Positions 49,296 through 51,369 of a stretch of 64,000 nucleotides of DNA are shown piece after piece. A program made the translations under genes and the position numbers. The first letter of the stretch is position 1, and every line of letters begins with the position of its first letter. The notes under the pieces are model-generated. The model did not search any database and was not told where the DNA came from. It saw only the letters and a program-made list of their open reading frames with translations. This DNA is from Pseudobutyrivibrio sp. (lineage in GTDB: Bacteria; Bacillota; Clostridia; Lachnospirales; Lachnospiraceae). Location of the stretch: the NCBI RefSeq assembly GCF_017471675.1, contig NZ_JAFUSK010000076.1, forward strand, positions 193 through 64,192, read 5' to 3'.

Positions 49296-49496
49296 GGTTT
49301 GCGCGCCATGGGCGCGCTCTAACGGGTGAAAGTCCCGAACACGCCCAGATAGTGGGAAGTGTATAGCTGAACAGCAAGACCTGCTAAGAGTTGTCAAGTG
49401 ATATATATGAAAGTTAGTATATTTGATTTTAGAGCATAAGAAATAGACTGCCTGAAATAGCCAGTCAAAGAGAATCTGATATTTTTGTATTTGTTT

Positions 49497-50696
49497 TTAA
49501 ATAGAGTTTAAGTAAGCACTTATTCTTGCATAATAGATTCTTAAAAATTTATTACAGCCTGCAATCATATAGACATAGTAATGCTTTCCTTCAGCTCGTT
49601 TTTTATCCAAAAACTGATAGACTGGATCATCGATTTGTTGATGTCGAAGGATACAATCCATAACTGTAAAAAGTGTCTTACGTAAAGCCGAAGAGCCTCG
49701 CTTTGATATACCACGACTCTTTATATCAATGGTTCCTGATTGATATGGAGAAGAATCGATACCGGCATATGCTATTAATGCCTTACGGCTATGAAATCTT
49801 CTGATATCACCAATCTCAGCAATAAGTTGTGGTCCTAATGTTGTTCCTACTCCATGAAGAGACATGACTGCAGGATATTCAGGTAATTGAGACGCAATAC
49901 GGTTCATCTCTTGACGGATTTTTTCTAAAGCGTCAATCAAAGAAATAAGTTCTTTGGCAGTTTCTGTAATTATGAGTTTTGTATTAGCATTTGCCGGCAT
50001 GCTTGCAACTTTTTGATTGGCTAATTGGTAAATATCATTAACTTTGTTTGACTGATAGTGATAACCATTTTTAGAGCACCACTTCTGGTACGAACGTTCA
50101 AGTGACTTAATTGTTTTTGTGGTTATACAGTCTTTGTGCCAATAATCTTTGATAAAGTCAATCCATTTTTGGTGACCATCTTTGCGTGGTGTTTTGCCAA
50201 ACAATCCATCAATACCAGGAAATGTTTGATCTGATAAAGCTATGAGATTATTTATCAAAGCTACTTTAAGTTTGGTGTACTGCGTGAACTGACGGTTGTA
50301 GATTTTAAGAGCCTGACGTAATTCTTCTTCTGGTATATATTCAGGTAAATCAAGCCACCGATTCAATCCGTAGTTTGCGATTTTTATAGCATCCTTTTTG
50401 TCAGTCTTAACTCTACGAATACTGTAGTTGTCGTAATCATGGATAAGTATGGCGTTAACAACTGAAATGTAGAGGCCAGAGTTATACAGATAATTAGCAA
50501 GTGGTTCATAGTAACGACCTGTATATTCCATAACAATTCTAGACTCGCCTTTAAGAGATTTGATTTGCGAAACAAGCTTTTCAAAATCTTCTTCTGTGTG
50601 ATTGATTTCAAAAGGTGAAGCAACGATTTCGCCGAAAGGACGCATGATGGCAACAGTACTTTTTCCTTTAGAAACATCAATTCCTACTGAATTCAT
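49497..50696 (-). CDS. IS110 transposase/recombinase (DEDD RuvC-like + Transposase_20), 399 aa
   Basis: RBS AAGGAG; VGIDVSK, MEYTG, KTDKKDA; GVGTTLGPQLIAEIGDIRRF, YQSG, ISKRGSSALRK. Confidence 0.96.
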   Translation of the reverse strand: MNSVGIDVSKGKSTVAIMRPFGEIVASPFEINHTEEDFEKLVSQIKSLKGESRIVMEYTGRYYEPLANYLYNSGLYISVVNAILIHDYDNYSIRRVKTDKKDAIKIANYGLNRWLDLPEYIPEEELRQALKIYNRQFTQYTKLKVALINNLIALSDQTFPGIDGLFGKTPRKDGHQKWIDFIKDYWHKDCITTKTIKSLERSYQKWCSKNGYHYQSNKVNDIYQLANQKVASMPANANTKLIITETAKELISLIDALEKIRQEMNRIASQLPEYPAVMSLHGVGTTLGPQLIAEIGDIRRFHSRKALIAYAGIDSSPYQSGTIDIKSRGISKRGSSALRKTLFTVMDCILRHQQIDDPVYQFLDKKRAEGKHYYVYMIAGCNKFLRIYYARISAYLNSI

Positions 50697-50749
50697 AATA
50701 CATTCTCCTTTGTGAGTTGTAATTGTAAATGGTAACCATTCAGAACTCA

Positions 50750-50946
50750 TTACGATTCAATCTACTTAGTGACACGAGCGTGAAGCCCAACCTGCTAAAA
50801 ACGAACGCTGCAACGAGAGGATGGATATCAGTCTTGCGTAACGGGCGTTATAGCCCAAGGGTGTCCCCGATAAACCATTTACCCTCTCATTTTAGCTTAA
50901 TAATGAGGTTGGAAAACTGAATGATAAATATTTTTATATATCCAAC
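50750..50946 (-). ncRNA. Putative IS110 bridge RNA (target- and donor-binding loops)
   Basis: Guides match the flanks: GGACACCCT and GCAAG (target); TTAGCAGGT and AGTAG (donor). Each pair surrounds an inner hairpin inside a closing stem. Ends approximate. Confidence 0.85.
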
Positions 50947-51369
50947 AATTACATTGTAGTAGGGTGTCCATCGTGAGGTGGAATCTGAAGGAAGCTGTAA
51001 GCAAATCTCTGGTCCGACGGACAGAAATCACATATAAGGCTAGGCTACGAGAGACAAGTTGGCCGAAAACAACGAAGTCTAATAACTATCACATTTGTAG
51101 TAGCAGAGTAAATGTGGCGGATATATGGAGAGAAAGAGCGTGCACCTTAAGCGTGGAGGTCTCACAGAGGTTCCATTAGCCTAGTAACAACGAACTGTGA
51201 GAAGTCAGCCGAGCCCATAGTAGTGAAGAAATCTCTGTAATGGAGATGGAGTGAAGGGGCGAACAATCAATAAGTTTGAGTATGTCTCGTGTTGCAGAAA
51301 TGACAACATCTGCCGTATCCAATCGGGATAAGGGTGGTCAAATCAAGCGGGGCGGAAAGGAAAGAACGC

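What the first reader, a model, noticed from the sequence alone, without database searches (positions are those of the whole stretch)
49379..50962. Circle-junction promoter split across the IS ends
TTGACA (+49392-97, right end) and TACAAT (+50953-58, left end) become exactly 17 bp apart only when the ends join through the CT core, and would fire into the bridge RNA and transposase. This confirms the boundaries and suggests the element is intact.
Basis: partly seen in the sequence, partly recalled or inferred. Interest (0 to 1): 0.7.

Follow-up and report, generated by a model that had tools for sequence, protein, structure and literature searches.

The report
Split junction promoter of an IS110 element
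The two promoter halves are real and sit at the exact ends of an intact bridge-RNA (IS110-family) insertion sequence, a layout already known for this family; the less ordinary point is that the element is lodged inside a group II intron, which its guide RNA is programmed to hit.

Summary
On the minus strand, TTGACA (49397..49392) lies 13 nt inside the right end and TACAAT (50958..50953) 2 nt inside the left end. Joining the ends through one CT core gives an 11/12 sigma-70 promoter with a 17-nt spacer, pointing into a ~200-nt bridge RNA and a 399-aa DEDD/Ser recombinase.

The boundaries (49379..50962, 1584 bp, 2-nt CT ambiguity) were confirmed without using the promoter:
- 107 of 120 uninterrupted target sites read ...CAGCAAG|GGTGTCC.
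- Reads and contigs skip exactly 1584 bp.
- The bridge-RNA guides match the target (LTG 9/9) and the donor.

TTGAC[A/T] and TACAAT, always 17 nt apart, are invariant in nine relatives down to 40% protein identity, while neighbouring bases vary. Chance for one element is about 0.1%. In the integrated state the best hybrid promoter is 8/12.

This is the RE-LE junction promoter already shown experimentally for IS621, so it is a new member of a known kind. No circle-junction read or transcription start could be obtained, so function here is inferred.

The element sits antisense in domain I of a group II intron, at the same site in four other rumen-bacterial loci. A 52%-identical relative hits another site in the same intron family.

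The parts
49379..50962 (-). IS110-family insertion sequence, 1584 bp including one copy of the CT core. The boundary can slide by 2 nt.
   Evidence: Empty sites. Contigs and reads skip 1584 bp with a 2-nt overlap. Near-identical copies in L002, L003, L004 and L006.
49392..49397 (-). -35 half, TTGACA, in the right end. It ends 13 nt before the CT core.
   Evidence: TTGAC is invariant in 9 relatives.
50953..50958 (-). -10 half, TACAAT, in the left end. It starts 2 nt after the CT core.
   Evidence: TACAAT is invariant in 9 relatives.
49377..49378 (-). CT core copy at the RE/target joint (AG on the plus strand).
   Evidence: 2-nt overlap at the empty site.
50961..50962 (-). CT core copy at the target/LE joint (AG on the plus strand).
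50746..50946 (-). Predicted bridge RNA of about 200 nt. The predicted start is about 7 nt after the -10. It has a 5' stem-loop (50946..50908), then a target-binding and a donor-binding stem-loop enclosed by a long-range stem.
   Evidence: Fold. Covariation in the 5' stem-loop and donor-binding stem across 8 relatives, with 25 of 46 predicted pairs showing compensatory changes. Architecture as described for IS110 bridge RNAs (PMC11208160). The ends are predicted, not mapped.
50858..50866 (-). Left target guide GGACACCCT, identical to the left target plus core (9/9).
   Evidence: Guide geometry from PMC11208160.
50833..50837 (-). Right target guide GCAAG, the reverse complement of the core plus right target (CTTGC).
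50790..50798 (-). Left donor guide TTAGCAGGT, identical to the last 9 nt of the RE before the core.
50762..50766 (-). Right donor guide AGTAG, the reverse complement of the core plus LE start (CTACT).
49497..50696 (-). Recombinase/transposase, 399 aa, with an AAGGAG ribosome-binding site upstream. It has a DEDD RuvC-like domain and a Tnp domain with a catalytic serine.
49297..52740 (+). Group II intron that hosts the IS (ends approximate). The IS splits domain I between 49378 and 50963 and lies antisense to the intron.
   Evidence: Rfam group-II-D1D4-3 at 50967-51144 and D1D4-1 at 51181-51259. RT and maturase ORF at 51334-52653. The domain V/VI-like 3' end was read.
49259..49296 (+). Terminator-like hairpin plus T-run of the upstream gene, immediately 5' of the intron.
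   Evidence: Read directly. The introns in L003 and L004 have the same arrangement.
52761..54473 (-). Convergent 570-aa ORF. Its transcripts, if not terminated, would run antisense through the intron into the IS left end. This is a possible source of basal bridge-RNA and recombinase expression in the integrated state.
   Evidence: The role is inferred by analogy with read-through-dependent excision of IS621 (PMC13626964).

Best explanation
The two hexamers are the halves of a junction promoter (Pjunc) of an intact IS110-family, bridge-RNA-guided insertion sequence.

In the chromosome the -35 (right end) and the -10 (left end) are 1.5 kb apart and face nothing useful, so the bridge RNA and recombinase are made only at a low level. 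That low level probably comes from read-through or weak internal starts.

When the element is excised or copied out as a circle, RE and LE are joined through one CT core. This creates TTGACA-17 nt-TACAAT. Transcription then starts about 7 nt downstream, at the foot of the 5' stem-loop. It produces the ~200-nt bridge RNA and, by read-through, the recombinase mRNA.

The bridge RNA pairs one loop with the joined ends (donor, ...TTAGCAGGT CT ACTAC...). It pairs the other loop with the target GGACACC CT TGC, a conserved sequence in domain I of a group II intron. The recombinase exchanges strands at the CT core. Insertion splits the promoter again and switches it off.

Shown here: the sequence anatomy, the boundaries, the guide-target and guide-donor matches, the conservation of the split promoter, and the intact catalytic residues.

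Inferred: circle formation, promoter activity and the start site in this element.
For: - Hexamers, spacing and orientation.
- About 0.1% of shuffles give as good a junction-spanning promoter.
- TTGAC[A/T] 13 nt before the core and TACAAT 2 nt after it are invariant in 9 non-redundant relatives (40-100% aa identity). These relatives have different targets, and their neighbouring bases differ.
- No comparable promoter exists in the integrated state: 8/12 at best across either joint. Inside the region there are only 9/12 matches, at or below chance frequency.
- The covarying 5' stem-loop begins about 7 nt after the -10, so the functional RNA must start there or upstream.
- Guides match target and donor, and own-element matches (14-16 nt) far exceed cross-element matches.
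- The catalytic DEDD and Ser residues are conserved.
- Literature: in IS621 and five orthologues the RE-LE junction reconstitutes a sigma-70 promoter from which the ~177-nt bridge RNA is transcribed, and removing the -35 abolishes in-cis function (PMC11208160). Junction-promoter transcription was confirmed by RNA-seq (PMC13626964).
Against: - There is no direct evidence for circles. No junction contig or read was found in 15 runs laid on the region, and no junction match in viral contigs. Thirteen of those runs were Logan contigs, which drop rare variants, and the two raw-read runs lacked the IS, so this absence is uninformative.
- No start site was mapped. The metatranscriptome contigs that cover the bridge-RNA region (50643-50895 in X30, 50634-50829 in X37) are too sparse to define a 5' end and could include DNA.
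- TACAAT overlaps the right donor, so part of its conservation could serve recombination rather than transcription.
- A preprint reports an IS110 pathway that bypasses circles (10.1101/2025.10.25.684509).
Confidence: 0.85

Rival explanations
1. The conserved hexamers are recombination signals, bound by the recombinase or by the bridge RNA as part of the donor. They resemble a promoter only incidentally.
For: TACAAT lies 2-8 nt from the core, inside the right donor. The right donor guide AGTAG pairs with CT+ACT, just beside it. The subterminal sequences are conserved across relatives.
Against: TTGAC lies 13-18 nt from the core. That is outside the guide-paired bases and outside the 22-bp minimal donor that suffices for IS621 when the bridge RNA is supplied in trans (PMC11208160). 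Two hexamers matching the sigma-70 consensus at 11/12 with an invariant 17-nt spacing are not expected of a recombinase site. The direction and distance to the 5' stem-loop fit a promoter.
Confidence: 0.07
2. Each half works on its own in the integrated element. The RE -35 would form an outward hybrid promoter with the flanking DNA, or the LE -10 would use a -35 supplied by the flank.
For: Outward-facing -35 boxes that activate neighbouring genes are known for other IS families (general knowledge). Low-level RNA from the IS is present in rumen metatranscriptomes.
Against: The target is fixed by the bridge RNA, so the flanks are constant. They give only 8/12 hybrid matches on either side (TTGACA-18-TGTTCA and TCCACC-18-TACAAT). 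There is no TG extended -10 in front of TACAAT. The relatives have unrelated flanks.
Confidence: 0.04
3. It is a chance juxtaposition of promoter-like hexamers in AT-rich DNA.
For: The region is AT-rich, and promoter-like 9/12 matches occur at chance frequency: 4 found against 6.2 expected.
Against: Only 24 of 20,001 shuffles reach 11/12 across the junction. The motif and spacing are invariant in 9 diverged relatives.
Confidence: 0.01

Closest known systems
IS621 (E. coli) and its orthologues: IS110-family bridge-RNA recombinases with an RE-LE junction promoter (Durrant et al. 2024, PMC11208160; Hiraizumi et al. 2024, PMC11208158; PMC13626964)
   Same: - DEDD RuvC-like plus Tnp(Ser) recombinase, with all five catalytic residues aligned.
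- Long non-coding LE encoding a bridge RNA with a 5' stem-loop, a target-binding loop and a donor-binding loop.
- LTG and LDG are same-sense, RTG and RDG are antisense, and each includes the CT core.
- The -35 is in the RE and the -10 in the LE, brought together only in the circle.
- Insertion goes into a repeated sequence.
   Different: - The recombinase is distant: phmmer E=1e-15 and only partial alignment. It is 399 aa against 326 aa.
- The host is a rumen Lachnospiraceae-type Firmicute rather than E. coli.
- The target is a group II intron domain I sequence rather than a REP element.
- The RTG exact match is 5 nt.
- Nothing has been tested experimentally for this element.
Pjunc junction promoters of other IS that form circles: ISEc11 (IS1111 group), IS492, and IS911/IS2/IS30 (references listed in PMC13626964; the IS911/IS2/IS30 cases are from general knowledge)
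   Same: A strong promoter is assembled from an inward -10 at one end and an outward -35 at the other, only in the circular or tandem intermediate. This gives a burst of transposase expression that ends on insertion.
   Different: In IS911, IS2 and IS30 the ends are inverted repeats separated by a few bp of flank, and the enzyme is a DDE transposase. Here there are no terminal inverted repeats, the joint is a 2-nt core, and the first product of the promoter is a guide RNA.
CazIS110-1 from Caloranaerobacter azorensis (bioRxiv 10.1101/2025.10.25.684509)
   Same: It is an IS110 element from Firmicutes with a bridge RNA, and circular intermediates have been shown.
   Different: That work reports copy-out and a circle-independent direct-transfer pathway. 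Whether this applies here is unknown. Sequence relatedness to the window element was not tested.

Membership tests
IS110 family (IS110 group, bridge-RNA type) | Recombinase with an N-terminal DEDD RuvC-like domain and a C-terminal Tnp domain carrying the catalytic serine | tested here: met
   Pfam PF01548 (6.7e-30, full length) and PF02371 (8.7e-20). D7/E57/D99/D102 and S320-G321 align with IS621 D11/E60/D102/D105 and S241-G242.
IS110 family (IS110 group, bridge-RNA type) | No terminal inverted repeats and no long target duplication. A 2-nt core is shared by donor and target. | tested here: met
   The empty site against the occupied site gives a 2-nt (CT) overlap only. The ends ACTACAATG... 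and ...TTAGCAGGT are not inverted repeats (read directly).
IS110 family (IS110 group, bridge-RNA type) | Long non-coding left end, upstream of the recombinase, encoding a structured RNA whose two internal loops match target and donor | tested here: met
   The LE is 264 nt. The fold shows a 5' stem-loop and two stem-loops, with covariation. Exact guide matches are LTG 9/9 and RTG 5, with LDG 9 and RDG 5. The own-versus-cross matrix is specific.
IS110 family (IS110 group, bridge-RNA type) | Sequence-specific insertion into a repeated target | tested here: met
   Five loci from four organisms share the same site (window, L002, L003, L004, L006). The IS is 98.3-98.9% identical while the host intron flanks are 83-96% identical.
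IS110 family (IS110 group, bridge-RNA type) | Circular RE-LE intermediate | tested here: inconclusive
   No junction was found in contigs of 13 runs or raw reads of 2 runs, nor in viral contigs. Contigs drop rare forms and the raw-read runs lacked the IS.
Junction (Pjunc) promoters of circle-forming IS | A -35 at one end and a -10 at the other, with consensus-like hexamers and 16-18 nt spacing only in the joined form, directed into the element's genes | tested here: met
   TTGACA-17-TACAAT scores 11/12. The integrated state scores at most 8/12. The layout is conserved in 9 relatives.
Junction (Pjunc) promoters of circle-forming IS | Transcription start mapped downstream of the junction, and activity that depends on the hexamers | not testable with these tools
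   Only sparse metatranscriptome contigs were available. This needs 5' RACE or a reporter.
Group II intron (the host of the insertion) | Ribozyme domains plus an intron-encoded RT/maturase | tested here: met
   Rfam RF02001 at 142.6 bits and RF01998 at 42.1 bits. RVT_1 and GIIM. The domain V/VI-like 3' end was read and not modelled.
Group II intron, bacterial class C | Small intron inserted just after intrinsic terminator hairpins | tested here: inconclusive
   A hairpin plus T-run lies directly 5' of the intron in the window, L003 and L004. The intron is about 1.86 kb without the IS. Class assignment by RT phylogeny or ribozyme structure was not done.

The most novel reading that the evidence does not exclude
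This IS110 lineage uses a group II intron as its landing pad. Its bridge RNA is programmed against a conserved domain I sequence (intron sense CAGCAAG^GGUGUCC). A 52%-identical relative (L008) is programmed against a second site about 58 nt upstream in the same intron family, in the opposite orientation.

If this is a general habit, RNA-guided insertion sequences ride on, and inactivate, a retroelement that itself spreads to sites after terminators. That would give the IS a self-renewing supply of harmless targets. The junction promoter would then be its main switch, because the antisense position inside the intron offers no host promoter.

No paper in the searched library combines IS110, group II intron and bridge RNA.
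Probability: 0.5. Interest if true: 0.5.

Novelty: new member of a known kind. Interest (0 to 1): 0.3.

Why it matters
For the promoter itself the value is confirmatory. It shows that the RE-LE junction promoter described for IS621 in E. coli is conserved, at fixed geometry (-35 ending 13 nt before the core, -10 starting 2 nt after it), in a diverged Firmicute clade of IS110 elements. It also gives a well-delimited, apparently active element with known donor, target and guides, which could be tested as a bridge recombinase.

The nested arrangement is the more interesting by-product. An RNA-guided IS aimed at a group II intron, with a second lineage aimed at another site of the same intron family, is a natural case of one mobile element specialising on another. 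It also offers many natural occupied and empty target pairs in rumen metagenomes.

Tried and rejected
1. Direct evidence for circles. I laid contigs or reads of 15 public runs on the region. None showed a go-back joint or a loose end with the junction sequence. Thirteen runs were Logan contigs, which drop rare variants. The two raw-read runs (X60, X61) contained the intron but not the IS. An isolate run (X46) showed the IS at twice the flank depth, matching two copies, but no junction contig.
2. An exact search for the junction TTAGCAGGTCTACTACAATG in viral contigs found nothing.
3. Transcription start from metatranscriptomes. Only sparse low-depth contigs cover the IS, so no 5' end can be read.
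4. Rfam has no family matching the bridge RNA region, even at E<=10, so the RNA was assessed by covariation and guide matching instead.
5. The plasmid collection has no near-identical copy of the IS.
6. An exact-protein look-up found only one contig, in the same context.
7. I considered that the intron-plus-IS composite moves as a unit by retrohoming. I rejected this as the main explanation because the IS is more conserved (98-99%) than the intron flanks (83-96%) across hosts, and most intron copies in the same samples are empty (depth of about 8 against hundreds). It is not excluded for the two copies within XBB1006 (L003, L004).
8. RNAalifold did not recover the target-binding stem-loop from the MAFFT alignment. 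The single-sequence fold and the guide positions were used for that part.

Full report
**What is at the coordinates.**
The region 49379..50962 carries, on the minus strand, a 399-aa ORF (50696..49497). It is preceded by an AAGGAG ribosome-binding site and by 264 nt of non-coding DNA, and followed by 118 nt of non-coding DNA. The protein has full-length Pfam DEDD_Tnp_IS110 (6.7e-30) and Transposase_20 (8.7e-20) domains. Its best matches among solved structures are the IS621 and ISCro4 bridge recombinases. The residues aligned with the IS621 catalytic D11, E60, D102, D105 and S241-G242 are D7, E57, D99, D102 and S320-G321 (catalytic set from PMC11208158). It is therefore an IS110-family element with an apparently functional recombinase.

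**The observation.**
Minus-strand TTGACA is at 49397..49392 and TACAAT at 50958..50953, exactly as reported. The spacer is 17 nt and 11 of 12 positions match the consensus.
- Across the two integrated joints, the best promoter-like combination is 8/12.
- Inside the region, the scan finds only 9/12 matches, at or below the frequency in shuffles.
- Only 24 of 20,001 shuffles of the two 60-nt ends gave a junction-spanning match of 11/12 or better.

**Boundaries, checked without the promoter.**
The IS interrupts a group II intron on the plus strand. The evidence is Rfam group-II-D1D4-3 at 50967-51144 and D1D4-1 at 51181-51259, and an RT/maturase ORF at 51334-52653.
- A metagenome scan for the two intron flanks separated by 0-14 nt returned 120 uninterrupted copies. 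Of these, 107 read TATAGCTGAACAGCAAG|GGTGTCCATCG, and 20 are identical to the window over the 30 nt upstream.
- The insertion is therefore exactly 1584 bp, with a 2-nt ambiguity (AG on plus, CT on the IS strand). This is the core dinucleotide.
- Contigs and raw reads of several runs show the same joint, which skips 1584 bp with a 2-nt overlap.

**Bridge RNA.**
[quoted passage not shown] Across eight relatives, 25 of the 46 predicted pairs show compensatory changes, mainly in the 5' stem-loop and the donor-binding stem.

I used the guide geometry established for IS621: LTG and LDG are same-sense, RTG and RDG are antisense, and each includes the core (PMC11208160). With it the window element has these guides:

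| Guide | Sequence | Coordinates | Match |
|---|---|---|---|
| LTG | GGACACCCT | 50866..50858 | 9/9 to the left target plus core |
| RTG | GCAAG | 50837..50833 | reverse complement of CTTGC |
| LDG | TTAGCAGGT | 50798..50790 | last 9 nt of the RE |
| RDG | AGTAG | 50766..50762 | reverse complement of CTACT |

In a 7 x 7 matrix of bridge RNAs against targets, most own-element matches are 13-16 nt (9 nt in L012). Cross-element matches are 0-5 nt, apart from the near-identical L013/L014 pair and one L020/L012 value of 9. This confirms the CT core, the ends and the guide-RNA mechanism at the sequence level.

**Is the split promoter selected?**
I fixed the ends of the relatives by flank divergence between copies and by their own guide-target matches. 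I then aligned the reconstructed RE-CT-LE junctions of nine non-redundant relatives: the window, L005, L008, L010, L011, L012, L013, L014 and L020. They span 40-100% protein identity and have different targets. All show TTGAC[A/T] ending 13 nt before the core and TACAAT starting 2 nt after it. The spacer is therefore always 17 nt, while the positions upstream of the -35 and downstream of the -10 vary freely.

The covarying 5' stem-loop begins about 7 nt after the -10. That is where a transcript from this promoter would start.

TTGAC lies outside the bases paired by the donor guides. In IS621 a 22-bp donor lacking the -35 still recombines when the bridge RNA is supplied in trans (PMC11208160). 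Recombination alone therefore does not explain its conservation.

**Comparison with what is known.**
The reconstitution of a sigma-70 promoter across the RE-LE junction of circular IS110 elements is established.
- For IS621 and five orthologues, small-RNA-seq shows a ~177-nt RNA starting at that promoter (PMC11208160).
- Later RNA-seq compared junction and linear constructs. It found that excision of the integrated copy depends on weak read-through transcription, and it proposed that the junction promoter then boosts expression (PMC13626964).
- Earlier Pjunc work on ISEc11 and IS492 is cited in that paper.

The present case has the same geometry and logic in a diverged Firmicute clade. It is a new member of a known kind.

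**What could not be shown.**
- No circle junction was seen. There was no go-back joint or matching loose end in 15 runs, and no hit in viral contigs.
- These negatives carry little weight. Thirteen runs were contigs, and the two raw-read runs lacked the IS.
- Metatranscriptome contigs cover parts of the bridge-RNA region (50643-50895 and 50634-50829) and of the recombinase gene at low depth. So the element is probably transcribed in the rumen, but no 5' end can be read.
- A preprint on another Firmicute IS110 reports an additional circle-independent pathway.

**Context worth recording.**
Near-identical IS copies occur at exactly the same intron site in four other loci from three organisms: Pseudobutyrivibrio sp. 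OR37 (L002), Lachnospiraceae bacterium XBB1006 (L003, L004) and Lachnobacterium bovis (L006). The recombinases are 97-98% identical and the IS DNA is 98.3-98.9% identical, while the intron flanks are only 83-96% identical. In the metagenomes the IS has about 8x depth against hundreds for the intron. These are therefore independent, guide-directed insertions into a diverged intron family.

A 52%-identical relative (L008) sits in the same intron family at another site (GUUCU^AAAGGG, about 58 nt upstream) and in the sense orientation.

The introns lie directly after terminator-like hairpins, as described for bacterial class C introns. That description is my recollection of Robart et al. 2007, and the class was not tested.

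In the window, the only transcription that could reach the left end of the integrated IS would come from the convergent gene at 54473..52761, running antisense through the intron. This is an inference.

No paper in the searched library combines IS110, group II intron and bridge RNA.

**Verdict.**
Novelty is low for the promoter and moderate for the intron-targeting side observation.

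Noticed in passing
window 49297-52740 (+), IS at 49379-50962 (-): The IS is nested antisense in domain I of a group II intron. 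Near-identical IS copies occupy the same intron site in L002, L003, L004 and L006. The IS (98-99% identical) is more conserved than the host introns (83-96%). The bridge-RNA target guides match the intron sequence.
   Followed up: yes
L008:2733-4338 and flanks: A 52%-identical IS110 relative is inserted in the same group II intron family at a different site (GUUCU^AAAGGG, near the intron 5' end) and in the sense orientation. Its own LTG and RTG match that site (9 and 7 nt).
   Followed up: partly
window 50889-50894 (-), alignment A1 columns ~66-71: A second -10-like hexamer (TAAAAT here, TAnAAT in all 8 relatives) lies between the 5' stem-loop and the target-binding stem. In most relatives it is preceded by TG, like an extended -10. 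It has no -35 partner. It could be an internal promoter giving a 5'-truncated bridge RNA from the integrated copy, or simply a conserved RNA or protein-binding sequence.
   Followed up: partly
L006:1-300: In Lachnobacterium bovis the left end of the IS is cut off by another element whose end encodes an IstB-like (IS21-family) ATPase C-terminus. This removes the -10 half, the 5' stem-loop and the target-binding loop, so the copy is dead.
   Followed up: no
L017:~1170-1225: In one relative the left end is preceded by an RE-like sequence (...TTACAACATATTTAGCAGGCT|TCTACAATAG...), and its own right end is truncated. This may be an insertion next to, or recombination with, a donor-like site of a related IS.
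   Followed up: no
window 50952-51010 and 49300-49378: The uninterrupted form of the intron is abundant in rumen metatranscriptome contigs (word depth up to about 870), while the IS is near the detection limit. The intron family is highly expressed and multi-copy in these communities.
   Followed up: no
window 47505-49247 (+) and 52761-54473 (-): Two convergent ORFs of similar size (580 and 570 aa) flank the intron. The first has no Pfam hit on record in the matching public contig. Whether they are paralogues was not checked.
   Followed up: no
L022:2700-4330: A 55%-identical relative appears to have a degraded junction promoter. The right end reads TTGAC directly followed by CAGGTT, apparently through an internal deletion, and the left end has TATACG instead of TACAAT. 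It may also use a TT core. It could be a decayed copy.
   Followed up: no
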